64,000 bases of DNA from Anaerolineales bacterium (GCA_015075725.1 JABTTV010000001.1:3461223-3525222), one strand, 5' to 3'. Positions 1 through 27,543 are shown, numbered from the stretch's first letter. Notes: generated by a model from the sequence alone, not told the origin. Numbers and translations: made by a program.

Positions 1-866
1 GGAAGCCAAGGTATATCTGTTCGCACCATGACAGTTGTAGACTGATTGGCCGGAAGAATGGATGCAGTTTTGGTCAACAATGGCTTATGAACCCACCTGC
101 GAATATGAAGTTTGGGATAGATAAGTGGGTGATTGGTACTTCCAGGTATGGTTTGGACATCGATGGTTAGCACCAAAGACAGATAGCCATTCCCAAATGG
201 TTGCGGAGGCCAAGACACCAGTTCCAAACCTTTTCCATCAGGACGTTGGGCTCGTATCATCTTAAATGGTATATCTCTGATATAAAACACTTTTTCTTGT
301 AATTGCTTAACAATCCAGGCAGGTAAAGCCTTATAGAAATAACCTTCGTTTTCCGGAGATACACCAGGCCCACTTGGATCAAGGGGCAAGTCTATTTTTA
401 AATCTTGAAATTTCAGGTGAGACGGTGACATTCCGTTTAATAGATTGTTCAGACGGCTGTGAATTTCCGCATAAGTAGAACCTCCCAGGTTGGCGAGTTG
501 TTCCATCTCAAAATTTGCCCAGCCTCGTACAATCGTAGTGACAGGTGCAGCGTCTGGTGCATTATCGCCAGCAGTAATGAACGCGCGAAGCGATGTTTTG
601 TTAATCCATAAGGAATCAAAACCAGGGGTAATGCCGGATGGGATGGTGAGGAGAAGTACATTCCCAAGAGAACGGTACGGTAAATACCATTTTTGGGATT
701 TGGAAGAAATGTACTGAGCGATTGAATTCAACTCACTCTCCCATTCCGAAGGAAACCTTGCCTGCCACAAAATCTGGCTAGGCATACTGCCATCAACCAG
801 GTGATATGCAAAGCGACGATAGGTGGAATAATTTCCTCTTGGGCGAGCAGTGCGTTTGCTTTCCAT
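1..866 (-). CDS. pPIWI-RE (PIWI/Argonaute-superfamily) protein, N-terminal pPIWI_RE_X/DUF3962-like region; runs off left edge and is absent from the ORF track
   Basis: Translated by hand: ATG at 866 after an AGGAGG RBS, open to the window edge (MESKRTARPRG...GLELVSWPPQPF...SLVLTIDVQTIPG...IYPKLHIRRW...DIPWL). The ELVSWPP, QTIPG, IRRW and PWL motifs are typical of pPIWI_RE_X. It is the third gene after a REase and a DinG-like helicase. Confidence 0.85.
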   Translation of the reverse strand, partial: MESKRTARPRGNYSTYRRFAYHLVDGSMPSQILWQARFPSEWESELNSIAQYISSKSQKWYLPYRSLGNVLLLTIPSGITPGFDSLWINKTSLRAFITAGDNAPDAAPVTTIVRGWANFEMEQLANLGGSTYAEIHSRLNNLLNGMSPSHLKFQDLKIDLPLDPSGPGVSPENEGYFYKALPAWIVKQLQEKVFYIRDIPFKMIRAQRPDGKGLELVSWPPQPFGNGYLSLVLTIDVQTIPGSTNHPLIYPKLHIRRWVHKPLLTKTASILPANQSTTVMVRTDIPWL

Positions 867-874: not shown

Positions 875-3800
875 CTAATTAGTGTCGTGTCCTAGACCAT
901 GTATTTGCTGCAGCCCATGAATGGGCTCACCATACAGGGCAGTTGCAATTTGGTTGGCAGTAGTTGGTGTCTGTCCAATATGTATAAACTGTTCGTAGCA
1001 CTCACGCATGGCTATTAATAAACTTGTGCGGGCTGAGTCGGACTTTTCTTTTGTGCTCTCAGGTGCCCATTTTGAATCGACAAAGACAACGATTACAGGC
1101 ACATTTCCGCGAATACCACGTCCTACTGCTTGCCATACTCTGGTGAATAGTGTTGAAGCAAGCTTATTTCGGTCATCGTCTTCCATGTTCCGCCAGGTTT
1201 GTTTTGTGGACATGAGCCGATACCATTCCAGTCGAGCCTGTCTGCGAAAGTCTTCCGCGGCCACACCAAATAACTCTCGCGATACCATGACAGCTCTCTT
1301 GCTGAGAACCCAATGCATAAGATGACGTGCATCGGCAGAAGGATCGTTAGGTGGAAGAAGAGAACGAATCAGAAAGAATATGCTTCCAAAGGCTGCTTTT
1401 CCCGCTTGGTTTAAGATATTTCGCCCGCGCCCAATTGCATCAATAGGGGCGACGAGAACCTTACTTTCCGGATAAAGCAAAGCAAAGCGGTTTACTTCAC
1501 CTGTGCCTATTTTTAGAAATCCAGAATGGGCCGACTCCAGTAATTCATCACCTCGACTCATGCAGGCAGCATGTAAACTTGGTTGAGTCTGCTGAATAAT
1601 TGAAGTAACCGTAAAAGCTTCATCATAGCTACCAGTTAGGATAAGTATACGCTGCCTATCTCGCCATACTTCTACTACTCCATTTTGTTGACGATGGGAA
1701 ATTTCGGCTAGAACTTGTGAGATAGTTTGATTCGGTCTGGAAATCAGCCGGGCAGCAGTTTGTAATTGCTCCTGGCGTTGATCGCCGAACGCACCTGATA
1801 TGGAAACATATGTACCCTTTGATGTTGTAACAGGCTTGAAGAGCCAATCCGTAACATGTTTTTCATCGTGCCTTGTCTCCAAAATTCCTGTTGGGGTAAC
1901 ATGTACATGGAAAAATGGCGATGATGGAGACCAGGATGTCCCTGAGAGCAAGAGGGTTTGGGGTCCTTTTATTCCATCCACACTAAGAAACAGATCGTGG
2001 AAATGCATGATTGCCCAGCGTCCCATCCCGGCAAAACGGATACGCCGCAATATTCCATCAATGACGGGACGGTACTTTTCATGCTTGTATTGAAATCCAA
2101 AAATCCTGCCAGTGGGTGGCCCTGGGATAAACGGACGTAGCTCTCGATCGCGGTCTTGAAGTGAAGTGTAATCATCCAAGTTGAGATCTTGAGGCGCAGC
2201 AGACCAATTAAGCTCAACCAGAGTCAATTGATCATCAAGGAGGCAGACCAAAATTGCAAACTCAATCTTCCCGGCGGTAGATGACCAATAATTATCATTA
2301 TTCAATGACACAAGCCGAGGGTCCTCTTTGGTGTTTGCCCGCATATTTTTTCTGGCGAGTTGCACCCATTCAGCACACCGGACTTGAATTTGCTTAGTAT
2401 GTCCTGTAGCGATCAACGTTGACGCAATCTGGTTCAACTCGCGTAGAAGTTCTTCTTTTTCTAAATTCTCAAAATCTAAAGGTGCCGATGCAAATTGTCC
2501 CAGAATATTGAGCCATTCTTCGTGTTGATGTTTTTGCTGGTGTGTGCAATCTTCTGGCCTGATGCCCATCAATTCCCAGGTAATCATAGAAAACAAATTC
2601 ATGTTCCAAAAAACACCTTCACCTATCCATTTGCGAATTTGCCCAGAAGATGGGCCGGTTAAAACATCATAGATTTGATCGGTGACAGAATTTGCAATTT
2701 CAACAGCACGTACCCATTTTCGACTAGCTAGGTCTGGTAGACTGCGTTGATCATTTCTCATATGAGCAACCCGTTGTGCTAGGTCATTGAGAAGATGTCC
2801 TTGACCTGGTCCTGCAAGGATGCTATCAGGCAGGAAGATATCATCAAACGTTGATTGTGCCTGGTCACATTCATCGATAACTACAATATCACTTGCCCGA
2901 TAAACGAGCTCGTAGTAAGACATCTTGTACGGCAACAGGTTGCTGGGAATTTTTGATGAAACCAATGATGCCGGACTGCATACCCATATTGGCGCAGTTG
3001 GAATATCTCGCGAACTTTGGTGGACAGGACATATATTGACCAATGGACATAATTTATCCTGGGCGATTTGCCTCCCATCACTGGACGCCTCCCCTAATTT
3101 TTCACAAGGAAATTCGCCAGCTGGAATAGGGCCAGCATAATCATCAGAGACAAGGCTATGAGATTCGATGGCGCAAGCTGTATTCAGATAATGCCACCCG
3201 TAATGATTTATATGTGAGACATTCTTTCGTTTCGCTTCCTCATAAGAATCCTGGTAAAGCTGCTCGATATGTTTCGCTTTACTGCTCCTGCCCAAAATAG
3301 GAACGGCAAAAGAGGACCCTCGGATTGTGTTTTGGTAACGAGCGTAATTTGCCTTTTCAATCATGGGAAACAAGTGCGTTTTTTGGCGTAAAACTGGGTG
3401 TAATAAACGCTGATTGATTTCGTTGACAAACCGGAGGATTGAAGAAACATCATTCAATATCAAGGTTATTCTGTAACCTTTGTATACACTCCACACAGCT
3501 AGTAAAAAGGCAAGCGTAGATTTCCCGACCGATAATGTTCCTGGAAGATGTACAGTATTTTCCAGCAGTAACTCAGATGAGTCTTTAAGATGTCCTCTGT
3601 GTGAAAATATCTTTAACCCAATATTGTCGAGCCTCTCACGCCAATGACCAAGTGGGATCAGAGGGGGGTGAAGCTTGGATACTGCCTCGAGTTCATCAAG
3701 GAATCTGGCGATTTCCCTTAGTTCTGCAAACTTAACCATTATCTTTTCTGGATTAGGTAAATTTATATTCAGAAAATTTTCCGGTTTTTGTGTCAACTGC

Positions 3801-4327
3801 CCCCATTCATTAGGCAAGACTACTTCTCGAATAACTCTACGGTTATCAGCAGTCCTAATTTTATAAAAATATTTTTTGCCGGGTTCAGCAAATTCCTTGC
3901 CCGATCTGGTTAGTGGGGGAGGTGTCGTGGCAAGTTTTTGAAAAAATTCCAATCGCCTCTTTGTCAAAACATTGGGCGGAATTTGCTTGATACACTTTTC
4001 TTCGTTGTCCAAGTCAAAAAGCCTGATCTTTGCATCGAAAGTTTGGTAGCGTTGAATGTCTTCATTCCAACTTCTTCGATCATTGCTAATATAAAAACTG
4101 GAAATGGCGATAATCTTTTTTTCGTCATCTGTCCAATCGCCATCTATGAAATTTGCCATGCCAAACACAGCCCAAATGTCTTTAGGCAGTAAATTTAGTG
4201 TGAACGCAAGCCAAATGCCAAATTCCGTTTGGAAGAGTGTAGGTAAATTCTCCGGCAAATTCCCTTTTTCATAGAAGTCCTTCAAGTCATTGTATAGAGG
4301 ACGCCACCACTGGTTTGTATCACGCAT
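875..4327 (-). CDS. pPIWI-RE-associated DinG-like SF2 helicase (pPIWI_RE_Z-type N-terminus)
   Basis: 1150 aa. Walker A LSVGKST, Walker B VIDECD, and a Cys cluster (TAC...FPC...LCPLVNICP) like the DinG/XPD Fe-S site. Start overlaps the REase stop by 8 nt. Confidence 0.85.
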   Translation of the reverse strand: MRDTNQWWRPLYNDLKDFYEKGNLPENLPTLFQTEFGIWLAFTLNLLPKDIWAVFGMANFIDGDWTDDEKKIIAISSFYISNDRRSWNEDIQRYQTFDAKIRLFDLDNEEKCIKQIPPNVLTKRRLEFFQKLATTPPPLTRSGKEFAEPGKKYFYKIRTADNRRVIREVVLPNEWGQLTQKPENFLNINLPNPEKIMVKFAELREIARFLDELEAVSKLHPPLIPLGHWRERLDNIGLKIFSHRGHLKDSSELLLENTVHLPGTLSVGKSTLAFLLAVWSVYKGYRITLILNDVSSILRFVNEINQRLLHPVLRQKTHLFPMIEKANYARYQNTIRGSSFAVPILGRSSKAKHIEQLYQDSYEEAKRKNVSHINHYGWHYLNTACAIESHSLVSDDYAGPIPAGEFPCEKLGEASSDGRQIAQDKLCPLVNICPVHQSSRDIPTAPIWVCSPASLVSSKIPSNLLPYKMSYYELVYRASDIVVIDECDQAQSTFDDIFLPDSILAGPGQGHLLNDLAQRVAHMRNDQRSLPDLASRKWVRAVEIANSVTDQIYDVLTGPSSGQIRKWIGEGVFWNMNLFSMITWELMGIRPEDCTHQQKHQHEEWLNILGQFASAPLDFENLEKEELLRELNQIASTLIATGHTKQIQVRCAEWVQLARKNMRANTKEDPRLVSLNNDNYWSSTAGKIEFAILVCLLDDQLTLVELNWSAAPQDLNLDDYTSLQDRDRELRPFIPGPPTGRIFGFQYKHEKYRPVIDGILRRIRFAGMGRWAIMHFHDLFLSVDGIKGPQTLLLSGTSWSPSSPFFHVHVTPTGILETRHDEKHVTDWLFKPVTTSKGTYVSISGAFGDQRQEQLQTAARLISRPNQTISQVLAEISHRQQNGVVEVWRDRQRILILTGSYDEAFTVTSIIQQTQPSLHAACMSRGDELLESAHSGFLKIGTGEVNRFALLYPESKVLVAPIDAIGRGRNILNQAGKAAFGSIFFLIRSLLPPNDPSADARHLMHWVLSKRAVMVSRELFGVAAEDFRRQARLEWYRLMSTKQTWRNMEDDDRNKLASTLFTRVWQAVGRGIRGNVPVIVVFVDSKWAPESTKEKSDSARTSLLIAMRECYEQFIHIGQTPTTANQIATALYGEPIHGLQQIHGLGHDTN

Positions 4328-5402
4328 AATTCACTTCCCTTTTTATTAGGCGTAGAAACTGCTTCATAGATAAAAGGTTCACTCTGCTTTTTCTTGCGCC
4401 CGTCAACAATGCACCTTCCCAGAATAATTTTTCATAGTTTGGTAAGAAAAAATCATCTTCAATCACATAGAATGACCGATCCCAATGCAGATCCTGCAAG
4501 GCATAGTTCTGGATAAAACCTTTTTCGGCTTCCCTTCGACCCAATATCCACGGTGACTTGCTGGCTTTGACGTCCACCGCCCACACCTTGCCGTCAGGCA
4601 GGATAATTTGCAAATCATATTCATCAATTCCTGGCCATAACTTAGTTGTGAGTTTCATCTTAGATAGCTTATTATTCAGTTCAATTTCTGGTAGACCGGG
4701 GAGACAGACATACGCTTTTATGCCTCGCTTGAGACGTTTCAAGTCAGTAGTGAACTCGATGGATTTAGCCTTTGAAAAATCCCCGTGCTTTTCACAGATG
4801 ACCCAATTTCTGCAATACAAGTGCCCATCTTTCAAAAGCAGTGCGTCGTGGCAATGATGGCATAAGAAGACTCTACTGTTTTCAACGCATTCCGTAGGAA
4901 TAGATTCATAGGCATCCTGTACTTCGTTCAAAATGTTACCTCGGGAAATCTGATCAATAATTTCCTTGAGCCTAACAATTGGATTCTCGATTATAAAACG
5001 CCGGCTTTTCAAATAAAGTGGATAATAACTTGACCGGTCTGACCGGCAGATGTCCAGTATTTTTTTCATAACGCTTTCGTCAATTTCATCAATTTGAGCG
5101 TTTAGTCCTCGTAGTGAATAAGCCCATTCCATGCAGAATGTTGAGGGCTCCCCAAACCGTAACAGTACATCGTTTTCTACACAATTTGGTAACGAGCCCG
5201 GCCACCATTGCTTTATAGGGAATTCAAACTCAGAAAGTAAATCAAAACGACTGACAGGCAACGGCTTTTCCCCATATAAAAGATTTCGTGCTTGCAAATC
5301 CCGAATCCCTAGTTCCAAGATTTCCGGGAACTCAATTGCAGGTCGTCCTAAAAATGATAACCCTGTCGCAATCTTAGCAAGAACATCGTCTGCTTCAATC
5401 AT
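4320..5402 (-). CDS. pPIWI-RE-associated restriction endonuclease-fold protein (pPIWI_RE_Y + Zn-ribbon + PD-(D/E)XK)
   Basis: YDLQIILPDGKVWAVDVK nuclease motif and CHHC/CRNWVIC cysteines. Likely start is MIEADD at 5402, overlapping the upstream stop; the ORF track extends to 5492. Confidence 0.8.
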   Translation of the reverse strand: MIEADDVLAKIATGLSFLGRPAIEFPEILELGIRDLQARNLLYGEKPLPVSRFDLLSEFEFPIKQWWPGSLPNCVENDVLLRFGEPSTFCMEWAYSLRGLNAQIDEIDESVMKKILDICRSDRSSYYPLYLKSRRFIIENPIVRLKEIIDQISRGNILNEVQDAYESIPTECVENSRVFLCHHCHDALLLKDGHLYCRNWVICEKHGDFSKAKSIEFTTDLKRLKRGIKAYVCLPGLPEIELNNKLSKMKLTTKLWPGIDEYDLQIILPDGKVWAVDVKASKSPWILGRREAEKGFIQNYALQDLHWDRSFYVIEDDFFLPNYEKLFWEGALLTGARKSRVNLLSMKQFLRLIKREVNYA

Positions 5403-5991
5403 GTTTCGATTCCTCCAAGGGCCAAAACATATATATATATTGCAGCCCATTTTCGGTAATTTCAAAATCTCTACGGATGAGATGCATATCATAAAGGCGT
5501 TTGAGTCGCGTGCTTGCTGTATTCACCGCCAGCCCCAATTGTCTCGCTAAATCTGGCGCCGTAAGCTGTCCTTGTTTGAAAAGTAAATCCAGAGTTTCCC
5601 GCAGGTTTTGTTCTAATTGTCCAATGCAATCCCATTGGCCTGTCTGTTTTATCACCATGAAAGCGATTTTGAGCTTCTGTAATTTTACTGCTGCGGTCAG
5701 ATTCTCGATGGAGTCGTCCCCCAGCCCATACAAAATAATTCCTTGCCCTTCGCCGAACGCATCTTTATTTAATCCTTCCTGGAGACGAATGACCACTTCA
5801 TCTGCAAAGGACACATCCATAAGTTGATTTTCTGGAAAGATAATCCTGATTGGACAATTTGCAGGATCAGAAGCCTGTATGTGTTTTACCAATTCTATAT
5901 ACACTTTTTGCCCTTTTTCCCGAGTAATCAGGAGAGCAGAGTTTCCAATACCAACTTCACTACAAATCGTTCCAAGATTTATGTCCAACAT
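5395..5991 (-). CDS. capS: STAS-like + winged-HTH transcriptional repressor (CapS-like)
   Basis: N-terminal STAS-like domain with MDVSFADE (candidate phospho-Ser) and C-terminal wHTH (LTAPDLARQLGLAVNTASTRLKRLYDMHLI). It sits next to an anti-sigma-type kinase. Confidence 0.7.
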   Translation of the reverse strand: MLDINLGTICSEVGIGNSALLITREKGQKVYIELVKHIQASDPANCPIRIIFPENQLMDVSFADEVVIRLQEGLNKDAFGEGQGIILYGLGDDSIENLTAAVKLQKLKIAFMVIKQTGQWDCIGQLEQNLRETLDLLFKQGQLTAPDLARQLGLAVNTASTRLKRLYDMHLIRRDFEITENGLQYIYMFWPLEESKHD

Positions 5992-6029
5992 AGTTTTCTC
6001 CTACATGTATTCAAGTGTTTGTATTGACC

Positions 6030-6050
6030 GTTCAAGTAATTTACTTGAAC
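6030..6050. promoter_or_regulatory. Perfect 10-1-10 palindrome, candidate CapS operator
   Basis: GTTCAAGTAA-T-TTACTTGAAC, 40-60 bp upstream of the capS start. Related half-sites at 6010-6016 (TTCAAGT) and 6086-6095 (TCAAGCTTGA). Confidence 0.65.
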
Positions 6051-6106
6051 ACATAGGGCTATTTTACAACTTCTGTTGAGTTGAGTCAAGCTTGAAAAAT
6101 GTGTTA

Positions 6107-7000
6107 TTAGCTTTGCAGTAAAGAGAAATTGAGCCCCAGCGCGATTTGTGTTCCTGGAAAAAAAACTGTCTCAGATGTAAATACCCTACCCGCCTTAAAG
6201 TGGCTTAGTACCGTAGCGTCATGAGACCGCAAATAAAGCGAACCGTTATTATCTTGCAGGATTTGCTCAACCCGTCTTAAACCAAGTCCACCGCGTCCTG
6301 TGTCTCTGGCTGATTGTCCTTCCATAGCCAATTTGAGGTAATCAATTGCAGAGCCAGCTATGAGGCCATAGCGCGATTCTAAACTTCCCCTTATCCCGCA
6401 TCCAAGATCCCCAACTGCCACTTGCACATTGACCACGTTTAGTGCTTGTTTCTCGTATTTTTGTATTAGGACAATCCCATTTTTGTCAGCGCTATGTTGG
6501 TAGACATTTGAGCACAGTTCGCTTAAAGAACCCAACAAGCTATTTAATGCACTCTTGTTTAGCCAATGACTAAAAATATTCTCGGCTCTTTCAATAGTTT
6601 TTTCAACATCTGAATTTGTACTAATCCTGGTCATTTCCAATAATTGACTGGTGTGTGAATTTCGTGCCCACTCATCTGCACCTAAATTCTCTATTTCCAA
6701 CCAATCTTGTGCTCCAACAGGAATATCCATTCTTTGTAAATATTTTTGCACTTCTCGGGAAACATTTCTCAGCAACACCTTTTTTTTTGTAATCCCGTAT
6801 ATATGCCGGCAAACAAGAATTAATCCAAGAGCGCGAGATGGTGTGATAAATCCTGCTCTCTCCATGTTTATAGAAATAGTTGATGTTGAAGTAGTTTTAT
6901 TAGCAAGATCGAATAACAAATTTAAATCGGAAAAATTATCTTCCGACGTTGAAGTCGAGTAATTAATTTGTATTTCATGATTAATGTTCATGAAGTTCAA
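6107..7000 (-). CDS. capK: STAS-like + anti-sigma-type HATPase kinase (CapK-like)
   Basis: HATPase N-box ELCSNVYQH, G1 DLGCGI and G2 GRGGLGL; N-terminal STAS-like region. Confidence 0.7.
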   Translation of the reverse strand: MNFMNINHEIQINYSTSTSEDNFSDLNLLFDLANKTTSTSTISINMERAGFITPSRALGLILVCRHIYGITKKKVLLRNVSREVQKYLQRMDIPVGAQDWLEIENLGADEWARNSHTSQLLEMTRISTNSDVEKTIERAENIFSHWLNKSALNSLLGSLSELCSNVYQHSADKNGIVLIQKYEKQALNVVNVQVAVGDLGCGIRGSLESRYGLIAGSAIDYLKLAMEGQSARDTGRGGLGLRRVEQILQDNNGSLYLRSHDATVLSHFKAGRVFTSETVFFPGTQIALGLNFSLLQS

Positions 7001-7044
7001 ATCCTATTGAGCAAGAAAAATTGCTACAGAGCATTTTGCCTTGA

Positions 7045-9264
7045 CTATTTCTCATTTTGGTATATTTGATCCTTGTATAAATTAGAAACGATAATACCTT
7101 GTAAATCTTTTCTTGCCTGTTCCCAATCCAGCCATTCCTGTCCGGTGCGTCTCGCAATCAAATGATCAGGAATAAATTCATCGAATTTTTGGATGCGTTG
7201 GATCTCGACCGGGATCATGTTGACAATATCTTCCAAACCATATCCCGAATTGGCAACATCCTGCAATCTGGACGTAAACTGCTCTCTGGTTTCACCTTCT
7301 GCCTTGGCAATGGTCATAACCCAGGGAAACATCATCATGGGGAAGTCGGCTTTTAGTCCACAAGCTTGGAACCAATATTGAAGCGTCCGGGCAGAACGTG
7401 TGCCTGTCCAGGGGAAGATCACCCAACTTCCAGGAAGTTCAAATATCTGCTTTTGTCCAATACCCCAGTCTAAACTGAGCCGGCGCGTATCTGCCAAAGC
7501 ACGTTGCCCATTTGCATCCAAATATGAAAAGGTCTTGTCAGATAATAGAATTTCCAGAACACGCTGAGCAATACGCGGATGCATTTCAGGGATGCCTGCC
7601 CCAAGGAACATAACATCGCGGGAGTCTTTCGCCGGCTCCACCAGGACTTGCTGCTTGTCTTCAAATATCTGCTTTACCTCCCATATCCTGCCCACCAAGA
7701 GGAGGCAAGTACCGGGAGCCAAATCTGGACGAGGACTGATCCGTCCAAGAATGCGTTCCTTATGGAAAACATCCCATTCCGGCGGAGTGGTAAAAACAGC
7801 ATAGAAATCCCTGGAACGAACCACTTTTTCACCAGCCAGCCCCAGAATGATCTCGCCTGTTTCCAACTGTTCAATATGATCTGTAGCTCCCAAATGTTTG
7901 AGTAGATCGGCATATTCCTGCGATGTCACACCAGGGAAAACATTCGAGCCTAAGAAATGCCCCACCAAATCCTTGGGGGAACTGCCATGTGTCTCCACTA
8001 ATCTGGAAAGCATTTGGTGATAGAGAACATTGTAGGCAACGGTTCTCTCAAGGGGCGGCTCAAGCCAGCCTTCGAGGAAGAGATCCACGATTGCCAATGA
8101 CTTCAACAAGGAGAAGGGAATTCTTTCATAGAATTCATCACCTGCTTCGGACTCGATCTCTGATGTGTAAATCTGCATAATGCGGCTGGCATCCTGCCGC
8201 CGTCCGGTTCGTCCCAAGCGTTGTACAAAGGACATCACTGTGTGAGTGCTGTCCATTTGCACGGCAAGATCCAACTGACCAATGTCGATCCCCAATTCCA
8301 GCGTGTTCGTACAAACCACGGAGGAAGGTCGGTCATCATCCCGCATGCGGACTTCCGCGTCCTCGCGGATTTCCTTGCTGATCGATCCATGATGGGGAAG
8401 GAAATGTTCAGGCAGGCGTTCGCGTTGATTGCGGCGGTTCAATTCTGCCGTCAGAACCTCCACATGCCTACGGCTGTTGCAAAAGATCAGCGACCGTTTG
8501 TTCTTGGTAAGAGCATAGAGATCGTCAAGCAGTTCGGAAGGGATATCCTCTTTTGTAAGAGAAAAATGCAAATGGCTTAACTTCGTTGGGGGCAGGCTGA
8601 CATCTGGGTCGATGACCTGCACCTTCGAGGGGTCGGTTGGATTTAACCACCTCTTTGCCGCCTCCGTATCACCCACGGTGGCGGACAAACCAATCCGTCT
8701 CGGACGGTTGGATTTTGCATACTTCTCGATGCGTTGCAACTGGCTACGGAGTTGCACACCGCGATCCGATTCCATAAAGGAATGGACTTCATCTACTACG
8801 ATGAACTGCAAACCGCCAAATAAACGATGCAGGTGATTGGTTTTGTTGACAAATAGACTCTCAATGGATTCGGGGGTAATTTGCAGGACCCCGCCCGGCT
8901 GCTTGATGAGGTCGGCTTTTTGACTGCTGCCCACATCGCCATGCCAGCGGTGGATAGGAATATCGCCTGCTTCACACAATAGATCGAGCCTGCGGAATTG
9001 ATCGTTGATCAACGCCTTGAGCGGACCGATATACAACGCTTTGATCGATCCCATTGGCTCCTGGGCGATCAGGCTCAGAATGGGAAGGAATGCCGCTTCG
9101 GTCTTGCCGCTGGCGGTGCCGGTTGTGATCAGGACATCGTTCTCGCTGTCAAAGATCGCGTTAATCGCCTGGGCTTGAAGTTCCCGAAGCTCCTGCCAAC
9201 CAAGACGATAGACAAATTCCTGTACAAAGGGAGCGAGCCGATCAAATGCATTTGGGGAAGACAT
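7045..9264 (-). CDS. sngC: Lhr-like DEAD/DEAH helicase, Shango SngC
   Basis: TASGKTEAA, DEVH, LSAT, HHGS and QRLGRTGR motifs; third gene of a TerB-ATPase-helicase trio. Confidence 0.85.
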   Translation of the reverse strand: MSSPNAFDRLAPFVQEFVYRLGWQELRELQAQAINAIFDSENDVLITTGTASGKTEAAFLPILSLIAQEPMGSIKALYIGPLKALINDQFRRLDLLCEAGDIPIHRWHGDVGSSQKADLIKQPGGVLQITPESIESLFVNKTNHLHRLFGGLQFIVVDEVHSFMESDRGVQLRSQLQRIEKYAKSNRPRRIGLSATVGDTEAAKRWLNPTDPSKVQVIDPDVSLPPTKLSHLHFSLTKEDIPSELLDDLYALTKNKRSLIFCNSRRHVEVLTAELNRRNQRERLPEHFLPHHGSISKEIREDAEVRMRDDDRPSSVVCTNTLELGIDIGQLDLAVQMDSTHTVMSFVQRLGRTGRRQDASRIMQIYTSEIESEAGDEFYERIPFSLLKSLAIVDLFLEGWLEPPLERTVAYNVLYHQMLSRLVETHGSSPKDLVGHFLGSNVFPGVTSQEYADLLKHLGATDHIEQLETGEIILGLAGEKVVRSRDFYAVFTTPPEWDVFHKERILGRISPRPDLAPGTCLLLVGRIWEVKQIFEDKQQVLVEPAKDSRDVMFLGAGIPEMHPRIAQRVLEILLSDKTFSYLDANGQRALADTRRLSLDWGIGQKQIFELPGSWVIFPWTGTRSARTLQYWFQACGLKADFPMMMFPWVMTIAKAEGETREQFTSRLQDVANSGYGLEDIVNMIPVEIQRIQKFDEFIPDHLIARRTGQEWLDWEQARKDLQGIIVSNLYKDQIYQNEK

Positions 9265-9265
9265 A

Positions 9266-10600
9266 TCAGCTCACTTTGAAATCGCTGAAACGATCTAATG
9301 GATCTTCATCCTTTGGGATTGAAACATCTTGCGGCTGGTCTTCCTTCGGTGCCGGCAAGCCCATGACAATTTCCTGCCAGGTCTTCTCCGGATACTGGTC
9401 CAGCAAATTCGATAGATTGACAAACTCACGCACCAGTTCACGCGGCGTGGTAAATTCCCTGGCGCCCATCCTGCGCAGCGTTTCCTCCATGTAGGCATGG
9501 ATATCCTGGTCTGTCATTTTCACCGGAGCTGCAGCCTGGCTTAGGTGGATCTCGCGGATCTTTTGGAGCAGGACGAAAATCTCTTCCGCGGTTAGGGAAG
9601 ATAACTTGATAACTGGTCCGGTGAAATCCTGCAATCCCTCCCCGAGAAAACGATTACCTGCCAGACGGGAGCGTAATGCCTCATAGCTGAATAACCCGCG
9701 ACGTTGATCTTCCAGAAATTCGGGTGTTCCGCCAAAGATAAAGCCAATATGTGCCGCCTTGCCCTGCAAACAATCATTGATGATCGAGAGGATAGCCTCG
9801 TAATTATTTTTTCGGGAAACACTGTTGGTGATCGTGTAAAGATAAGCCGCTTCATCCAAACAGACCGTGAAGCCGCTGTAGCCGATCTTCCGGAAAAAGA
9901 TGGCAAACACCTTTAGATAATCATAGAAGTTATCGCTGTCAATGATCGTTCGGATCTTCAAGGCGGCGTAGGCTTCTGTCTTGGTGCCATATTCCCCGCG
10001 CATCCAGCGCAGGGCGCTGGATTTCAATTCTTCATTGTTTTCTGCATATCCCTGATAGTAGGCAGCCAGGACGGAACCAAAATCAAAACCGTGGATCAGT
10101 TCCTGCATGTCGTTGAGCGTGCTGAGGATCCGGCTTTTCACTTGACTGACGAACTCTGGGGAGCCGTGATCCAGACCACTCTCTGTGGCGACACTGGTTT
10201 GGATGCCGGAGATCCAGCGTTCGATGATCGTTGGCAACGCATTGCCATCCGGGCGTGTCTGGGTCGAGAGATTTTTCATCAATTCCCGATAGGTGGCAAT
10301 GGCTTCATCCCCGGAACCAAAGAGCCTGCGTTCGGGAGAGAAATCCGCATCCGCCACCACAAACTTGCTTTCCAGGGCATAGGTGCGCATCAGCTGTAGT
10401 AGAAAACTTTTACCACTGCCAAATCTGCCAATGACAAAACGAACGGTCGCGCCGCCCTCCCGGTTATGATCCAGGTCGCTTTTGAGGGCAGCCACTTCCG
10501 ACAGGCGTCCGACGGAGATGTGCCGAAGACCCGTTCGGGGAACCACACCGGCGCTTAATGAAGTCAGGATTGTTTTTGCTTCGCGTTTTGTGATCGACAT
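9266..10600 (-). CDS. sngB: DUF2791/BrxD-like P-loop ATPase, Shango SngB
   Basis: SLSAGVVPRTGL N-terminus, GRFGSGKS Walker A and CLDE Walker B; lies between the TerB protein and the Lhr helicase. Confidence 0.85.
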   Translation of the reverse strand: MSITKREAKTILTSLSAGVVPRTGLRHISVGRLSEVAALKSDLDHNREGGATVRFVIGRFGSGKSFLLQLMRTYALESKFVVADADFSPERRLFGSGDEAIATYRELMKNLSTQTRPDGNALPTIIERWISGIQTSVATESGLDHGSPEFVSQVKSRILSTLNDMQELIHGFDFGSVLAAYYQGYAENNEELKSSALRWMRGEYGTKTEAYAALKIRTIIDSDNFYDYLKVFAIFFRKIGYSGFTVCLDEAAYLYTITNSVSRKNNYEAILSIINDCLQGKAAHIGFIFGGTPEFLEDQRRGLFSYEALRSRLAGNRFLGEGLQDFTGPVIKLSSLTAEEIFVLLQKIREIHLSQAAAPVKMTDQDIHAYMEETLRRMGAREFTTPRELVREFVNLSNLLDQYPEKTWQEIVMGLPAPKEDQPQDVSIPKDEDPLDRFSDFKVS

Positions 10601-10601
10601 A

Positions 10602-12470
10602 TTATTTCACCTCAAGTCCAAGATGTCCGCGCAGGAGCGGGAGATATTCCTCCTCCACAAACCAGGTTGTCCCATCCAGGTAAAAGGGGAGTTGCCCAAT
10701 GTGTACCTGCGCCTTTTCATTCAATGAATCCATGACCGCGTTTCCCATTGCATTGTGAGTCCTGGCAATGACATCAAGTTCTGTTTCCTCCAATTGTCCG
10801 CCTGTTCCAAGAAGTTTCGTGATCTCCACTTCCACGGGGTCGAGTGCGTCAAAGAATTGCACCCACGGATTGAAGGGTTCATCCATGCCTTCCTGAGAGG
10901 CGTCATCCTGGCTGGGAGGCATCTCCTTTACGACAACTTCCAATTCGTCCATAAAATCCTCTGCCAGGTGGATGGCATCGGCGGTTTGATATACCATTTT
11001 ATCGCCAAGCACACTCAACGATTTCTTGTTGATCGATTCCAGAAGCACGAAAACTTGTTCCAGTTCCATGCCCAGGACGATTTTGATCTGTTCGAATGTG
11101 TTCCATTCCTTCGCAAGCAATCCGGCAAGCACCATCCGCTCAGAGGATTGCAGAGATTTCCATAAGGTACGGGTTTCTTCAAGATCGGTCAGCAATTCCT
11201 TTTCTGCACCGACCTGTTCTGTAGCCAGCATCTCGCTTACCACCCGACTCTCTTCATGCAGCGAGGCGACTCGCTCGTGATCGATGGTGATCTTGATGGG
11301 TTCAGGTTTTCTGGGACGGGTCTTTTCCTGTTGGAACGCCAGATCCAGCTGTTGGGCAAGGTCGGCGGGTAGTTCAATGCCGGATAATTTTGCCGAGAAC
11401 TTCAACTGTTTTCTCAGGATGTTTTCGGCATACTTCATGATGGATGTGATGTTATTTGCCAACCGTGTTGAACCGGCATATTCCCTCCCGGTCGCCAGAC
11501 GTGCGGAAGCCGGATGGGAAAAACCGATTAAGGCGGAGGCAAAGACAGGTTTCTCATAATTGAGAACACGTTCTGATACGAACTGGTCGATTAAAGATTT
11601 TCCGGTTGTTTTGAGGTAGTGAGCGTTGGCGACTTTGATGGCTTTCTCATAGGAAAGATCGACGAAGTGATCTGTGTTGTACTTTTGATAAAACTTGTTT
11701 CGTGGCTGGTAGTCGGACAATAGGGACCAGATCTTATAAGGAAGCGCATCGACGCCATTGGCGCGGATTGCTTTTTCCACAATGATATTGACAATGGAAT
11801 CGGGAATATCCACCCCATCCACGTTCAGGATGGACTCCCACCATGCCAATGCCTGGGCGCCACCAACTTTTACAGCCAGAAGATCGCCTCCCCAATCTGG
11901 CAGGTAGCGGTCCAGGTTTGGATATTTTTCGCGATATGCCAGCCAAAGGATACGAATTCTTTCAGCCGCCTGAATTGGATCGGGCGTTTCGACCAGGTTC
12001 AAGATCTCATATACATGGATGAAGATGTAACTTAGGTCACAGGGATGGAATGTATTCTGTCGGGTCTGGGATCTCCAATAAAAGTACCATTGTTGCTGCG
12101 AGCCATTCATGTCACTGTAGGTTGGCCAGTAACATTTGAAAGGCACATGATTGGCAAAATTTTCCTTCTTACCCTTCAATTTTTGCGCTTCTTTTACAAA
12201 GCTCGTCCCCCTGTTTTCATAGGTGATGGTGACGCCTATGGAAGGCGTATAGCCTTGCCTCCCGGCAGGCGTAACATCTACAAACCGATCCGCGCTTGTT
12301 ATCCTTTTGGTATTGGCAGGCGCGATCTTCTTCCTCTGTGTTGTCTGAGGTCGTGGGGTGGTATTCGGAGAACTGAGGGAATTAACAAGACTCTCCAACA
12401 ATTGGAACGGCCAAAGCACCAACGAAACCAGACAGCAACCTTGATTGGATTTTCTTTTTCGTTTTGGCAT
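10602..12470 (-). CDS. sngA: TerB_N/TerB_C domain protein, Shango SngA
   Basis: TerB_N-like VPFKCYWPTYSDM...YFYWR...YIFIHVYEILN; TerB_C-like AVMDSLNEKA; N-terminal hydrophobic segment. Confidence 0.8.
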   Translation of the reverse strand: MPKRKRKSNQGCCLVSLVLWPFQLLESLVNSLSSPNTTPRPQTTQRKKIAPANTKRITSADRFVDVTPAGRQGYTPSIGVTITYENRGTSFVKEAQKLKGKKENFANHVPFKCYWPTYSDMNGSQQQWYFYWRSQTRQNTFHPCDLSYIFIHVYEILNLVETPDPIQAAERIRILWLAYREKYPNLDRYLPDWGGDLLAVKVGGAQALAWWESILNVDGVDIPDSIVNIIVEKAIRANGVDALPYKIWSLLSDYQPRNKFYQKYNTDHFVDLSYEKAIKVANAHYLKTTGKSLIDQFVSERVLNYEKPVFASALIGFSHPASARLATGREYAGSTRLANNITSIMKYAENILRKQLKFSAKLSGIELPADLAQQLDLAFQQEKTRPRKPEPIKITIDHERVASLHEESRVVSEMLATEQVGAEKELLTDLEETRTLWKSLQSSERMVLAGLLAKEWNTFEQIKIVLGMELEQVFVLLESINKKSLSVLGDKMVYQTADAIHLAEDFMDELEVVVKEMPPSQDDASQEGMDEPFNPWVQFFDALDPVEVEITKLLGTGGQLEETELDVIARTHNAMGNAVMDSLNEKAQVHIGQLPFYLDGTTWFVEEEYLPLLRGHLGLEVK

Positions 12471-15600: not shown

Positions 15601-15929
15601 ATCCGGGCGGAATCCATTTGGTTGTTCAGGGATGTCCAATTGGCACGTTCATCCAAGGTATCCGCCTTGGATACCAGGTCCAGCAATGCCCCGCGCAAAC
15701 GCGATCGCATTTCCCGGGCAGCCTTTTCCGTGAACGTGATTGCCACCACCAGACGTGGGGAAAGCCCATCTGCCAACAAGGACGCGTACCTTGCGACTAG
15801 GGTGCGGGTCTTACCACTGCCAGCTCCGGCGGTTACGATAATATTTTTTCCGCGCTCTAATGCGGATGTACGCTGATCCTTCGTCAAACCAAAGGTGTTG
15901 ACTACCCGTTGTGCTAGAGTCTCAGCCAT
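12642..15929 (-). CDS. addA: AddA-like UvrD helicase-nuclease
   Basis: AGAGSGKT, VDEFQDTN, GDDRQSIYRFR, TIHKSKGLEF and YVAMTRAR motifs, with C-terminal GYIDLL...LDFKTD nuclease. Likely start is MAETLAQ at 15929 (TAATG overlap with the addB stop). Confidence 0.9.
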   Translation of the reverse strand: MAETLAQRVVNTFGLTKDQRTSALERGKNIIVTAGAGSGKTRTLVARYASLLADGLSPRLVVAITFTEKAAREMRSRLRGALLDLVSKADTLDERANWTSLNNQMDSARIGTIHSLCAEILRAHPAEAGVDPRFDVIDEGLAKTLKKQLVETAVIGMVSQTEYRYLFQALGTQGVQDLLATLLDKRLEASEIFASALDGDTIVRSHLEDRFHAPAVMDCIKKLRGFTERQVFDDAGDKLAPQIINLLKEWESAEEAFAKGDIIACTQHLYKARRDYLKKGAGKKGRVKEIHADLQTLYDEFLDPLIGGANSKDEPPSAESEATFKTILPLVEKSFEALHQAYRSELQLRHALDFDDLEYGAMSLLQQDAIRAVWQNEVQALLVDEFQDTNPRQRNIVDALAGTGGRLFVVGDDRQSIYRFRRADVTVFREVQSRARAQGDLVLDLDITYRAHESLLDATGNLLAGVMGTEDRPGQPFYVPFRPLNAHRKAKPDHISDPHIEFILGAGEDAEDARPIAAQALAQRLLKLREEGQIQSWDDVALLFRASTGYTWYEDAFEDAGIPFVTVAGRGFYERPEIRDILNILRALADPADDLAMAGLLRSPAFGLSDSALYLLRHHGEKKSSFWNALREDNSYLNESDQACTRRAVSILNDLLPRVDRESVADLLKELVNAVDYRAVLAIEGESGSSGRLWRNLDKLLADAQSSSLVSVRDFLEYLITLNDAGAREGEAPADAQGAVRLMTIHKSKGLEFPVVILADATRTTMNRSDPVYLLPEMGLSIQIKPEPMLYRLSKQLDDLQNEAESGRLLYVAMTRARDKLIVSGHVSQGRSKIAGWMKELCGILEISPDELLDETGLYSQPKTAQKHPVLVWCSHGQGAQSQTEALTPSALPAEPQAPPLYKPIIDPVQISIEADEETVRRVWRVTEPTLHVPPSVIGQMTHKALELWLHVDDSLLIPLMESLALDAGLATEEQRVEAVRRVRELIERFCAHPLREEIEQADERHHEVPYTRMNGDHTETGYIDLLYRKGDEWFVLDFKTDAIHSEEQYKELVATYSRQLERYASAIKQLFGQDVKLSLCFLDNNGRTHIANQS

Positions 15930-27042: not shown

Positions 27043-27427
27043 GCCAGACCATCAGAAGAAAGAGAATCGTTCGCCAGGCGGCGGGGGATTTCATGCCAGT
27101 GAGGGATTGCTTCTGAAAGAATCTCCAGAAGAACTGAATGATGCTGGTGATCAGGAAGGAGAGGAATACAAGCAGGATCAGGGATGGGATATTGGAATTG
27201 GGTAAAGCCCAAAGAACTGCCATCCAGAGTTTGACATCCCCGGCACCCATCCATCCACTTGCCCAGACGGAAAGCAGCAGAAAACATGCCAGCCACAAAT
27301 CAATATGTCCGGGGAAATGCGCGATCATGCCCGCAAGAATCAATGGATACGTACACCAGTTCGGAATGCGATGGGTACGCAGGTCATACAGACTCACAGC
27401 CAGAAGATAAAAAAGCAACCAGGTCAT
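27032..27427 (-). CDS. A24 prepilin peptidase
   Basis: LYDLRTHRIPN and MGAGDVKL motifs. Probable start is MTWLL at 27427; the ORF track extends to 27487. Confidence 0.8.
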   Translation of the reverse strand: MTWLLFYLLAVSLYDLRTHRIPNWCTYPLILAGMIAHFPGHIDLWLACFLLLSVWASGWMGAGDVKLWMAVLWALPNSNIPSLILLVFLSFLITSIIQFFWRFFQKQSLTGMKSPAAWRTILFLLMVWHVH

Positions 27428-27543
27428 TGGTTGCTCATGATATTGAAGAATTTGAAAGGGTATGGTGGATGTGTCGCTTTTGCCCATGATCGGAATTGGC
27501 GACAGAAGTTTTATACTTGATGAAATATTTGGTAAAATATCTT

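What the first reader, a model, noticed from the sequence alone, without database searches (positions are those of the whole stretch)
5395..7000. CapK/CapS-like kinase-repressor pair wired into a pPIWI-RE operon
Seen: an anti-sigma-type HATPase followed by a STAS-wHTH protein whose stop overlaps the REase start (AAACATGATTGA), so the regulator is translationally coupled to the PIWI system. Known: CapK/CapS pairs upstream of immune operons are reported to de-repress transcription when ssDNA activates CapK to phosphorylate the STAS domain of CapS. Inference: a DNA-damage/ssDNA-inducible PIWI immune system. I know of no description of this pairing.
Basis: partly seen in the sequence, partly recalled or inferred. 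Interest (0 to 1): 0.85.

Follow-up and report, generated by a model that had tools for sequence, protein, structure and literature searches.

The report
Kinase-repressor switch controlling a PIWI-RE operon
Two small genes related to the recently described DNA-damage-sensing CapK/CapS kinase-repressor pair sit in front of, and are probably transcribed with, a little-studied bacterial PIWI-RE nuclease system, so this system is probably switched on by a stress signal; the regulator type is known, but this cargo and wiring have not been described.

Summary
On the minus strand, a 294-aa STAS-GHKL kinase (6107-6991) is followed by a 198-aa STAS-wHTH protein (5395-5991). The stop of the second overlaps the start of the PprRE nuclease gene by 8 nt (ATGATTGA). 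PprDinG and pPIWI-RE follow.

The STAS-wHTH protein is a distant homologue of CapS, about 22% identical. Its family profile hits the CapS crystal structures full-length (E 4e-13). Ser61 aligns with the CapS phospho-serine and is invariant.

The kinase is homologous to CapK and VapK but lacks CapK's N-terminal HTH, so it has the VapK architecture. Its catalytic motifs are intact, as is the Phe that corresponds to VapK's putative ssDNA-contact residue.

The 115-bp kinase-capS gap holds a sigma-70-like promoter followed by two tandem 21-bp palindromes. These are conserved across phyla. In this clade all four half-sites changed together, from TTCAC to TTCAA.

There is no second operator, so capS and the PIWI-RE genes probably form one autoregulated transcript. 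Sludge metatranscriptome contigs are consistent with this.

The five-gene module recurs in three CapS-like clades but is absent from 41 distant pPIWI-RE loci. Induction by ssDNA is inferred from homology, not shown.

This is a new variant of a known regulator with a new cargo.

The parts
6107..6991 (-). [quoted passage not shown] An alternative TTG start lies at 7000.
   Evidence: HATPase_c match. Of 47 homologues, 46 match HATPase_c, 25 match HATPase_c_2, 19 match STAS_2 and 11 match STAS. hhalign against CapK gives E 1e-9 and against VapK E 7e-8. The structure model has pLDDT 90.9; the best target-normalised TM-scores are to SpoIIAB (0.71) and RsbW (0.61-0.64). The N-box (E158, N162, H166), G1 (D195xGxG199) and G2 (GRGGLGL) motifs and F48 are invariant or nearly so.
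6084..6089 (-). Promoter -35 hexamer TTGACT.
   Evidence: Consensus scan: 10 of 12 matches with a 17-nt spacer. Conserved in relatives with 64-88% CapS identity.
6061..6066 (-). Promoter -10 hexamer TAAAAT.
   Evidence: Found by the scan. It lies at a fixed 10 nt from operator P1 in 9 related loci, reading TAAAAT, TAGAAT or TATAAT.
6030..6050 (.). Operator P1, a perfect 21-bp palindrome GTTCAA-N9-TTGAAC.
   Evidence: unique in the window, 0 expected. Conserved family-wide as GTTCAC-N9-GTGAAC, and changed in both arms to TTCAA/TTGAA in this clade.
6009..6029 (.). Operator P2, GGTCAA-N9-TTGAAT on the minus strand, abutting P1 in 21-bp register.
   Evidence: Direct repeat with 21-nt spacing. Conserved as GGTCAC-N9-GTGAAG in other clades, with the same C-to-A switch in this clade.
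5395..5991 (-). capS-like gene, 198 aa. The STAS domain holds the phospho-acceptor candidate S61; the C-terminal domain is a wHTH.
   Evidence: PDB sequence hits to CapS 9Z72 and 9Z71 (E 9e-6 and 1.5e-4 for the single sequence; 3.9e-13 and 9e-10 for the family profile; both full-length). S61, D59, F62 and E65 are invariant. In the model (pLDDT 91.6), S61 sits at the N-terminus of helix 60-75, after strand 48-51. The wHTH matches ArsR/MarR folds.
5395..5402 (-). 8-nt overlap ATGATTGA between the capS-like stop and the PprRE start. A GGAGGA Shine-Dalgarno lies at 5411-5416.
   Evidence: An overlap of 8 or 4 nt is also seen in L030, L032, L033, L034 and L018.
4320..5402 (-). PprRE, 360 aa: the pPIWI-RE-associated restriction-endonuclease-fold protein, with domain Y and the REase domain.
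   Evidence: Pfam pPIWI_RE_REase 1e-19 and pPIWI_RE_Y 8e-9. PADLOC PprRE 2e-27.
875..4327 (-). PprDinG, 1150 aa: DinG-type helicase with domain Z.
   Evidence: PADLOC PprDinG 7e-133. Pfam pPIWI_RE_Z.
1..866 (-). First 288 codons of the pPIWI-RE gene, cut by the window end.
   Evidence: Open frame. It is identical to the N-terminus of the 923-aa protein on contig L024, which carries pPIWI_RE_X, MID_pPIWI_RE and RNaseH_pPIWI_RE.

Best explanation
This is a five-gene mobile module: kinase, CapS-like repressor, PprRE, PprDinG, pPIWI-RE. The first two genes are a distant, HTH-less version of the CapK/CapS 'controller of adjacent pathways'.

Proposed mechanism:
1. The CapS-like protein, as a dimer, binds two tandem 21-bp palindromes (GTTCAA-N9-TTGAAC and GGTCAA-N9-TTGAAT). 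These start 10 nt downstream of the -10 box of a sigma-70-type promoter in the kinase-capS gap.
2. Binding represses one transcript that carries capS itself and, through overlapping or near-abutting reading frames, PprRE, PprDinG and pPIWI-RE.
3. The kinase comes from its own weak promoter or from read-through, at low level.
4. When the kinase is activated, most likely by single-stranded DNA as in CapK and VapK, it phosphorylates Ser61 at the start of helix 2 of the CapS-like STAS domain.
5. Phosphorylation breaks the dimer, releases the operator and lets the nuclease, helicase and PIWI proteins be made together.

Shown here: gene order and overlaps; homology of both proteins; conservation of the catalytic motifs, of Ser61 and of Phe48; the promoter and operators with concerted half-site change; the module moving as a unit; transcription of capS and the downstream genes in environmental RNA data.

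Inferred: DNA binding, phosphorylation, dimer loss, ssDNA as the signal, and the defence role of pPIWI-RE.
For: Homology of the repressor:
- CapS structures are the top PDB sequence hits, full-length.
- S61 aligns with the experimentally phosphorylated S54/S58 and is invariant.
- The model places S61 at the STAS phospho-site position.

Homology of the kinase:
- hhalign against CapK gives 96% probability and against VapK 95%.
- The GHKL motifs are intact.
- F48 aligns with VapK F54, whose F54A mutation abolishes defence in the paper. F48 is invariant in 47 homologues.
- The fold is closest to the anti-sigma kinases SpoIIAB, RsbW and UsfX.

Operator:
- The palindrome is unique in the window.
- The promoter and both palindromes are conserved in 9 loci of this clade, within otherwise diverged DNA.
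- The same two-palindrome layout occurs in Chloroflexota and Nostocales loci with half-site TTCAC. All four half-sites are TTCAA in this clade.
- No operator-like motif lies downstream of capS in any of 23 genome loci.

The module is a unit:
- The same five genes occur next to different neighbours.
- GC is 41-46% in the module against 50-52% in the adjacent Shango genes.
- The pair is also linked to pPIWI-RE in two further CapS-like clades.

The family behaves as a modular regulator: other members precede CBASS, MBL plus E2/E1/JAB, and MoxR-VWA operons, overlapping the cargo list of published CapKS.

RNA: contigs from 8 sludge metatranscriptomes cover capS at word depth 2-21. Their ends on the promoter side lie at 5960-6036, 18 nt or more short of the predicted start near 6054. 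The kinase gene is covered in only 1 of the 8 runs.
Against:
- Identity to characterised CapS is only about 22%, and the kinase lacks the CapK HTH.
- The CapK residues K237 and K239 are not clearly conserved.
- The operator half-sites are unrelated to the TTAA sites of E. roggenkampii CapS.
- The published system has a second operator in front of the cargo; this one does not.
- The RNA evidence comes from assembled contigs, which have no strand information, give poor depth estimates and may include DNA carry-over.
- 41 distant pPIWI-RE loci lack the pair (37 metagenomic with at least 1.5 kb upstream, and 4 on plasmids), so it is not a general part of the system.
- 9 of 23 genome loci have a CapS-like gene with no kinase within 10 kb. 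The repressor can therefore exist without this kinase.
Confidence: 0.7

Rival explanations
1. The architecture and logic are the same (kinase inactivates repressor), but the kinase senses something other than ssDNA. Candidates are a phage protein, a nucleotide signal, or a product of the pPIWI-RE system. The N-terminal STAS domain would be the sensor.
For: The STAS domain of the kinase is too diverged from CapK's to align: hhalign covers CapK only from residue 115. The CapK lysines K237 and K239 are not conserved. For VapK, the closer architecture, ssDNA activation was only predicted with AlphaFold 3 and never shown biochemically.
Against: F48 aligns with VapK F54 and is invariant. CapK, the only member tested in vitro, is activated by ssDNA. 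Three families of defence regulators are reported to use DNA damage as their signal.
Confidence: 0.2
2. The CapS-like protein also, or mainly, acts at the protein level like an antitoxin. It would be made in fixed ratio with PprRE through translational coupling, bind and hold the nuclease (as VapS holds VapC), and be released by phosphorylation.
For: The layout resembles a type II toxin-antitoxin pair: an autoregulated small DNA-binding protein whose stop overlaps the start of a nuclease gene. The related VapS works by protein-level inhibition.
Against: The same CapS-like family, with the same operator, precedes unrelated cargo (CBASS, MBL, MoxR-VWA), separated by gaps of roughly 20-150 nt. 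In the second pPIWI-RE-linked clade capS and PprRE do not overlap. No cargo-specific extra domain is present.
Confidence: 0.07
3. The palindromes act as RNA hairpins in the 5' UTR, controlling stability or translation, rather than as DNA operators.
For: The 72-nt leader folds at -16.1 kcal/mol, z = -2.3 against shuffles.
Against: Across phyla the half-site sequence itself is conserved, not merely the ability to pair. P1 and P2 carry the same half-site, and all four half-sites changed to the same new sequence in one clade. The 21-bp register fits two dimers on one face of the DNA. No Rfam family matches.
Confidence: 0.03
4. The pair belongs to the upstream Shango system, or is an ordinary sigma-factor partner-switching module that is adjacent by chance.
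For: The kinase start lies only 44-53 nt after the sngC stop. The kinase fold is closest to the anti-sigma kinases SpoIIAB and RsbW.
Against: The pair travels with pPIWI-RE next to unrelated neighbours and without Shango. GC content shifts at the sngC/kinase boundary. No sigma factor or PP2C phosphatase gene was seen among the neighbouring genes examined. The substrate carries a wHTH domain.
Confidence: 0.02

Closest known systems
CapK + CapS (Chambers et al., EMBO J 2026, PMC13373217)
   Same: - A GHKL Ser kinase gene lies immediately upstream of a STAS-wHTH repressor gene, in front of a defence-type operon.
- The phospho-serine is conserved in a D-x-S-F motif at the start of STAS helix 2.
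- There are palindromic sites in the kinase-repressor gap.
- Other members of this family have the same kinds of cargo (CBASS, MBL plus E1/E2/JAB).
- Both proteins show detectable sequence homology.
   Different: - The kinase lacks the N-terminal HTH.
- The CapS-like protein is about 22% identical.
- The operator is two tandem 21-bp palindromes with GTTCA(A/C) half-sites, not TTAA sites.
- There is a single operator region and no promoter between capS and the cargo. In this clade capS overlaps the first cargo gene.
- The hosts seen are Chloroflexota, Nostocales and uncultured sludge bacteria, whereas the listed CapKS hosts are mostly Proteobacteria.
- The cargo is pPIWI-RE, which is not among the 443 published loci.
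VapK-VapS-VapC (same paper)
   Same: The kinase has the same STAS-GHKL architecture without an HTH and a similar length (294 against about 300 aa). It aligns full-length by hhalign (E 7e-8), and F48 corresponds to F54.
   Different: The substrate here has a wHTH DNA-binding domain, whereas VapS has a short C-terminal tail. There is no PIN/VapC toxin. The predicted output is transcription, not release of a toxin.
pPIWI-RE three-gene island (Burroughs, Iyer and Aravind 2013, PMC3702460)
   Same: The gene order REase, DinG helicase, pPIWI-RE is the same, and the termini overlap or are closely spaced. All the Pfam signature domains are present (Y, REase, Z, X, MID, RNaseH_pPIWI_RE).
   Different: The island was described as three genes. 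The only regulatory hint was occasional HTH domains (LexA, TetR, MerR) fused to the REase. Here two separate regulatory genes precede the island and are physically coupled to it.
SpoIIAB/SpoIIAA and RsbW/RsbV partner switching
   Same: The GHKL anti-sigma-type kinase fold is shared. A STAS protein is phosphorylated on a Ser at the start of helix 2.
   Different: No sigma factor and no PP2C phosphatase are present. The kinase carries its own STAS domain. The substrate is a DNA-binding repressor.

Membership tests
CapS (STAS-wHTH repressor) | N-terminal STAS domain followed by a C-terminal winged HTH, about 185 aa | tested here: met
   The family profile aligns full-length to CapS 9Z72 and 9Z71 (E 3.9e-13 and 9e-10). 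HTH_24 match. In the model, beta-alpha repeats are followed by a wHTH.
CapS (STAS-wHTH repressor) | Conserved phospho-acceptor Ser at the start of STAS helix 2 (S54 in E. roggenkampii, S58 in V. cholerae) | tested here: met
   S61 aligns with S54/S58 and is invariant in 38-sequence and 45-sequence alignments. It lies at the N-terminus of helix 60-75.
CapS (STAS-wHTH repressor) | Conserved DNA-contact residues (N145, K151, G169-G170 in E. roggenkampii) | tested here: inconclusive
   K164 corresponds to K151 and G182 to G170; both are invariant. The Asn is shifted by one position (N157/T158), and only one Gly is in the wing.
CapS (STAS-wHTH repressor) | Binds palindromic sites in its own promoter | tested here: inconclusive
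   Tandem palindromes lie downstream of the -10 box. They are conserved, with concerted half-site change. Binding itself cannot be tested here.
CapS (STAS-wHTH repressor) | A second binding site in a separate promoter in front of the cargo operon | tested here: not met
   capS overlaps PprRE by 8 nt. No operator-like motif lies downstream of capS in any of 23 family loci.
CapK (HTH-STAS-GHKL kinase) | N-terminal HTH domain | tested here: not met
   The protein is 294 aa. The alignment to VapK starts at residue 8 of both proteins. No HTH family is found in 47 homologues. The model starts with a strand of the STAS domain.
CapK (HTH-STAS-GHKL kinase) | STAS domain followed by a GHKL kinase domain with the catalytic Asn (N218 in CapK) | tested here: met
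   STAS_2 or STAS matches in homologues, and HATPase_c in 46 of 47. N162 aligns with the CapK Asn in ELxxNVxxHS. hhalign probability 96%.
CapK (HTH-STAS-GHKL kinase) | Activated by ssDNA; aromatic stacking residue (W68 in CapK, F54 in VapK) | not testable with these tools
   F48 aligns with VapK F54 and is invariant. Activation needs biochemistry.
CapK (HTH-STAS-GHKL kinase) | Encoded immediately upstream of capS | tested here: met
   A 115-nt gap separates the genes on the same strand. The kinase lies upstream of and next to capS in 13 of 23 genome loci of the family, and nearby with one gene between in a fourteenth, L005.
VapKSC toxin-antitoxin | VapC (PIN) toxin gene, and a VapS STAS protein without a wHTH | tested here: not met
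   No PIN-domain protein is present. The downstream genes are PprRE, PprDinG and pPIWI-RE, and the STAS protein has a wHTH.
pPIWI-RE three-gene island | REase (Y plus REase domains), DinG-type helicase (Z) and pPIWI-RE (X, MID, PIWI), in that order, with overlapping or closely spaced termini | tested here: met
   Pfam and PADLOC matches. The full PIWI protein is on an identical contig. RE and DinG overlap by 8 nt; DinG and PIWI are 8 nt apart.
Sigma-factor partner switching (SpoIIAB/AA, RsbW/V) | A cognate sigma factor and a PP2C phosphatase in the module | tested here: not met
   Neither is among the neighbouring genes in the window or in related contigs.

The most novel reading that the evidence does not exclude
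The trigger wired to this operon may reveal what pPIWI-RE is for. If the kinase senses ssDNA from damaged or stalled replication, the REase-DinG-PIWI machine may be mainly a damage-induced DNA-processing system, for example acting on R-loops or aiding replication rescue, rather than (or as well as) a phage restriction system. Two observations fit this. [quoted passage not shown] The module is also repeatedly found next to addAB, whose product generates ssDNA. A bolder add-on: the translationally coupled CapS-like protein may also hold the nuclease in check directly, which would make a kinase-gated, toxin-antitoxin-like PIWI system.
Probability: 0.15. Interest if true: 0.8.

Novelty: new variant of a known kind. 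Interest (0 to 1): 0.55.

Why it matters
pPIWI-RE systems are widespread, but they rest almost entirely on a 2013 computational prediction plus one biochemical study. Their trigger and physiological role are unknown.

A dedicated, signal-gated repressor in front of the operon gives a direct experimental handle. One can de-repress it (by deleting capS, by S61E, or with DNA-damaging agents) and observe what the system does. The nature of the signal can itself be read as a clue to function.

The finding also extends the newly described CapK/CapS regulator class in several ways:
- to an HTH-less kinase paired with a DNA-binding CapS;
- to new phyla (Chloroflexota, cyanobacteria);
- to a one-promoter, translationally coupled wiring;
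- to a well-defined operator in which a natural half-site switch (TTCAC to TTCAA) offers a ready-made specificity experiment.

The conceptual advance is moderate, because the published work already stressed that these regulators swap cargo.

Tried and rejected
- Foldseek of the full CapS-like model against the PDB returned only wHTH hits. The library stops at April 2026 and seems not to hold the CapS entries, and the STAS half did not score on its own.
- A single-sequence PDB search with the kinase gave nothing meaningful. The family profile gave only weak hits to histidine kinases, STAS domains, RsbW and SpoIIAB (E 0.002-0.4).
- NCBIfam has no model for the kinase, PprRE, PprDinG or pPIWI-RE. 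Rfam finds nothing in 5300-7300.
- A 13-sequence PprRE alignment was too diverse for a metagenome scan, so a 9-sequence one was used.
- The homologue search with PprRE returned only 14 proteins, because of the word index.
- I looked for wHTH residues that track the operator switch. T161 and N181 are fixed in this clade and absent from the 13 TTCAC-type genome loci compared. However, N181 also occurs in the second pPIWI-RE-linked clade, which keeps TTCAC operators, and T161 occurs in family members whose operators I did not read. No specificity residue can be named.
- I considered placing the -10 box inside P1 (TAAATT), as in the published wide palindrome. I rejected this because no -35 fits and the upstream TAAAAT is conserved at a fixed distance.
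- The organism was not identified. The source names are masked, and the window matches wastewater and activated-sludge metagenomes.
Full report
**1. What is in the sequence**

All relevant genes are on the minus strand. In the direction of transcription they are:
- a 294-aa protein at 6107-6991 (ATG start; an in-frame TTG lies at 7000);
- a 115-bp gap;
- a 198-aa protein at 5395-5991;
- PprRE at 4320-5402;
- PprDinG at 875-4327;
- the first 288 codons of pPIWI-RE at 1-866, cut by the window edge.

The regulator's TGA (5395-5397) and the nuclease's ATG (5400-5402) overlap in ATGATTGA, and a GGAGGA lies 8 nt upstream of the ATG. RE and DinG overlap by 8 nt. DinG and PIWI are 8 nt apart.

Pfam and PADLOC identify the three-gene pPIWI-RE island without ambiguity. 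A public contig identical to the window over 7000 nt supplies the rest of the PIWI gene. That protein is 923 aa and carries pPIWI_RE_X, MID_pPIWI_RE and RNaseH_pPIWI_RE.

Upstream of the kinase lies a complete Shango system: SngA 10602-12470, SngB 9266-10600, SngC 7045-9264. Beyond it lies an AddA/AddB-like pair.

**2. The 198-aa protein is a CapS homologue**

In that work:
- CapS is a STAS-wHTH repressor.
- CapK phosphorylates it on S54 (E. roggenkampii) or S58 (V. cholerae).
- Phosphorylation breaks the dimer and de-represses transcription.
- ssDNA activates CapK.

A sequence search of the PDB with the window protein returns the CapS crystal structures as the two best hits, aligned nearly end to end (9Z72 E 8.7e-6, 9Z71 1.5e-4). 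A profile of 45 family members raises this to 3.9e-13 and 9.1e-10. Identity is only 22-23%.

When the published sequences are aligned with 36 relatives, D59, S61, F62 and E65 of the MDVSFADE motif are invariant, and S61 falls exactly on S54/S58. An AlphaFold model (pLDDT 91.6) puts S61 at the N-terminus of helix 60-75, right after strand 48-51. That is the canonical STAS phospho-site position. The C-terminal 70 residues form an ArsR/MarR-like winged helix.

Of the published DNA-contact residues, K151 and G170 have invariant counterparts (K164, G182). The Asn is displaced by one position.

**3. The kinase is CapK/VapK-like, with VapK architecture**

Pfam gives only a sub-threshold HATPase_c hit for the window protein. 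Among 47 homologues, however:
- 46 match HATPase_c;
- 25 match the anti-sigma-type HATPase_c_2;
- 19 match STAS_2 and 11 match STAS, in the N-terminal half;
- none has an HTH.

hhalign of the family against published CapK gives 96% probability (E 1e-9), but covers only the end of the STAS domain plus the GHKL domain. Against VapK it gives 95% (E 7e-8) over essentially the whole length, starting at residue 8 of both proteins. Pairwise BLASTP agrees: VapK 3e-9 over 226 aa, CapK 5e-4 over 50 aa.

The N-box (E158, N162, H166), G1 (D195xGxG) and G2 (GRGGLGL) motifs are invariant or nearly so. N162 corresponds to CapK N218, which the paper showed to be needed for CapS phosphorylation and induction.

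F48 aligns with VapK F54. I corrected for a 5-residue numbering offset in the machine-read supplementary table. The authors treat F54 as equivalent to the ssDNA-stacking W68 of CapK, and F54A abolished phage defence. F48 is invariant in the family.

The structure model (pLDDT 90.9) is closest, normalised to target length, to the anti-sigma kinases SpoIIAB (TM 0.71), RsbW (0.61-0.64) and UsfX (0.59).

The pair is therefore a hybrid of the two published arrangements: a VapK-type kinase with a CapS-type DNA-binding substrate.

**4. Promoter and operator**

The 115-bp gap contains TTGACT-17 nt-TAAAAT (6089-6061, 10 of 12 consensus positions). Ten nucleotides downstream of the -10 box lies a perfect 21-bp palindrome, GTTCAAGTAA-A-TTACTTGAAC (6030-6050 as read on the minus strand). 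It is unique in the 64-kb window, with none expected in shuffles.

I then compared the equivalent gaps in related loci. The unit is really GTTCAN-N9-NTGAAC, and a second copy abuts the first in 21-bp register:
- P1: GTTCAA-N9-TTGAAC (6030-6050);
- P2: GGTCAA-N9-TTGAAT (6009-6029).

In family members from Chloroflexota and Nostocales, a MAG labelled Rhizobium, and the second pPIWI-RE-linked clade, the same layout reads GTTCAC-N9-GTGAAC | GGTCAC-N9-GTGAAG. In the nine loci of the window's clade all four half-sites read TTCAA/TTGAA instead.

Three features are the signature of a protein-bound operator rather than an RNA hairpin:
- half-site identity is conserved across phyla within otherwise unalignable DNA;
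- P1 and P2 carry the same half-site;
- all four half-sites switched together in one clade.

The leader can also fold as RNA, but only modestly (z = -2.3). No Rfam family matches.

The position, from about +4 to +46 relative to the predicted start near 6054, fits a repressor. In none of 23 genome loci of the family is there an operator-like motif downstream of capS. In the window's clade there is no intergenic DNA there at all. This family therefore appears to drive capS and its cargo from one regulated promoter, unlike E. roggenkampii CapKS, which has separate sites for capS and for the cargo.

**5. Transcription**

The locus is found in wastewater and activated-sludge metagenomes. Several metatranscriptome runs from such samples hold capS.

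I laid the assembled contigs of eight such runs on the window:
- capS is covered in all eight, at word depth 2-21.
- PprRE, PprDinG and pPIWI-RE are covered patchily and at lower depth.
- The ends of the capS contigs on the promoter side lie at 5960-6036, inside the gap and short of the predicted start.
- The kinase gene is covered in one run only.

This fits a start site in the gap, leaky autoregulated capS expression and low kinase expression. These are contigs, however. They carry no strand information, depth is unreliable, and DNA carry-over cannot be excluded.

**6. Which system does the pair belong to?**

CapS-like proteins 62-88% identical to the window's lie in the same five-gene module next to quite different neighbours: Shango, DnaB_C and Peptidase_M23 genes, DprA and HAD genes, or MBL and DUF3006 genes. 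GC content drops from 50-52% in Shango to 41-46% across the module, with the break at the sngC/kinase boundary. The pair therefore belongs to pPIWI-RE, not to Shango.

Two more CapS-like clades carry the same linkage:
- a clade 48-54% identical (L099, L100 and a 195-kb contig), in which capS and PprRE are 22-30 nt apart;
- an Anaerolineae genome at 44% identity (L018), with a 4-nt overlap.

From the PIWI side I scanned metagenomes with a PprRE alignment:
- all 6 loci with at least 45% PprRE identity have the CapS-like gene immediately upstream;
- none of 37 loci at 24-36% identity with at least 1.5 kb of upstream sequence has either gene;
- nor do four plasmid loci from Nostoc, Calothrix, Azospirillum and Streptomyces.

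The pairing is real and recurrent but restricted to a few lineages.

**7. The family is a modular regulator**

In 23 genome loci found with the CapS-like alignment, the downstream genes include:
- type II CBASS (SMODS, E2-E1, SAVED);
- another CBASS;
- a SAVED-domain protein;
- an MBL-fold protein plus an E2/E1/JAB fusion (five Nostocales loci and others);
- SWIM-DUF5691-MoxR-DUF5682-VWA operons (Chloroflexota);
- pPIWI-RE.

CBASS and MBL are also on the cargo list of published CapKS. This supports functional equivalence. The kinase lies upstream of and next to capS in 13 of the 23 loci, and nearby with one gene between in a fourteenth, L005.

A profile search of 1.84 billion representative proteins finds 731 clusters of STAS-wHTH relatives at E up to 1e-3, 313 at 1e-10 and 27 at 1e-30.

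**8. Comparison with what is known, and novelty**

The published CapKS survey covers 443 loci, mostly Proteobacteria. It lists CBASS, Bub, Bil, MBL, type IV Thoeris, DUF4747, R-M and YegP as cargo. 'PIWI' occurs nowhere in the text or the datasets, and the CapKS table (Dataset EV2) holds no cyanobacterial or Chloroflexota entry.

HTH-less CapK homologues were reported only as part of VapKSC.

The original pPIWI-RE description mentions only occasional HTH fusions to the REase. Consistent with that, several plasmid REase homologues are annotated as MerR- or Fis-family regulators. The one experimental PIWI-RE paper I found reports guide-dependent nuclease activity and ciprofloxacin sensitivity of a knockout.

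I therefore rate this a new variant of a known kind. The regulator class and its logic are known. Four things are new: the kinase/substrate combination, the single-promoter coupled wiring, the operator, and the cargo.

**9. Verdict**

The identification as a CapK/CapS-like pair wired into pPIWI-RE is well supported.

The ssDNA/DNA-damage trigger is the most likely signal by homology, and the corresponding aromatic residue is conserved, but it is untested. I put about 0.7 on the overall mechanism and about 0.5 on ssDNA specifically.

Interest is moderate to high for defence-system and Argonaute specialists, mainly because it offers a way to switch on and study an almost uncharacterised PIWI system.

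Noticed in passing
window 7045-12470 (minus strand): A complete Shango defence system (SngA, a TerB-N/TerB-C protein; SngB, a BrxD-like ATPase; SngC, a helicase) lies directly upstream of the kinase gene. Its GC content is 50-52%, against 41-46% in the PIWI-RE module. The two are separate acquisitions in one defence island.
   Followed up: partly
window 12642-18961; a 195-kb ENA contig; L033 15895-16597: AddA/AddB-like helicase-nuclease genes neighbour the module repeatedly. In the window they are separated from it by Shango. In the contig carrying P0029 they are directly adjacent, with the kinase start overlapping the addA end. In L033 an AddA-like gene follows pPIWI-RE. This may be an insertion hot spot or a functional link, since AddAB produces ssDNA.
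   Followed up: partly
window 6966-7002: A 15-nt inverted repeat (87% complementary, 7-nt spacer) spans the kinase start codon. It is conserved only in the closest relative (L034). It could limit kinase translation. No sigma-70-like promoter was found between sngC and the kinase gene.
   Followed up: partly
L007, L008, L009, L011, L014, L015, L019 (upstream of the CapS-like gene): In Chloroflexota, CapS-like genes in front of SWIM-DUF5691-MoxR-DUF5682-VWA operons have no kinase gene within 10 kb. In most of them two TTCAC-N9-GTGAA-type sites, about 66 nt apart, bracket a TTGAC...TAGACT promoter. This is a kinase-less variant of the regulator.
   Followed up: partly
L034 7007-7885; L099 7608-8718: In one close relative the kinase gene is split into 110-aa and 175-aa ORFs. 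In another contig PprRE is split into 143 and 214 aa. These may be frameshifts, decaying copies or assembly errors.
   Followed up: no
plasmid hits H1, H6-H9: Distant pPIWI-RE REase genes on Nostoc, Calothrix and Aulosira plasmids are annotated as MerR- or Fis-family regulators. They are REase proteins with fused HTH domains. This may be an alternative, built-in form of regulation in loci that lack the kinase/CapS pair.
   Followed up: no
L024 18150-20597 (just beyond the window's left end): Downstream of pPIWI-RE on the identical public contig lie a 57-aa ORF and an 832-aa SMC_N/AAA_23 ATPase. This may be a further defence gene in the same island.
   Followed up: no
window 27000-30000: There is a second low-GC stretch (about 42%) within a region of about 54% GC. 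It may be another horizontally acquired segment.
   Followed up: no
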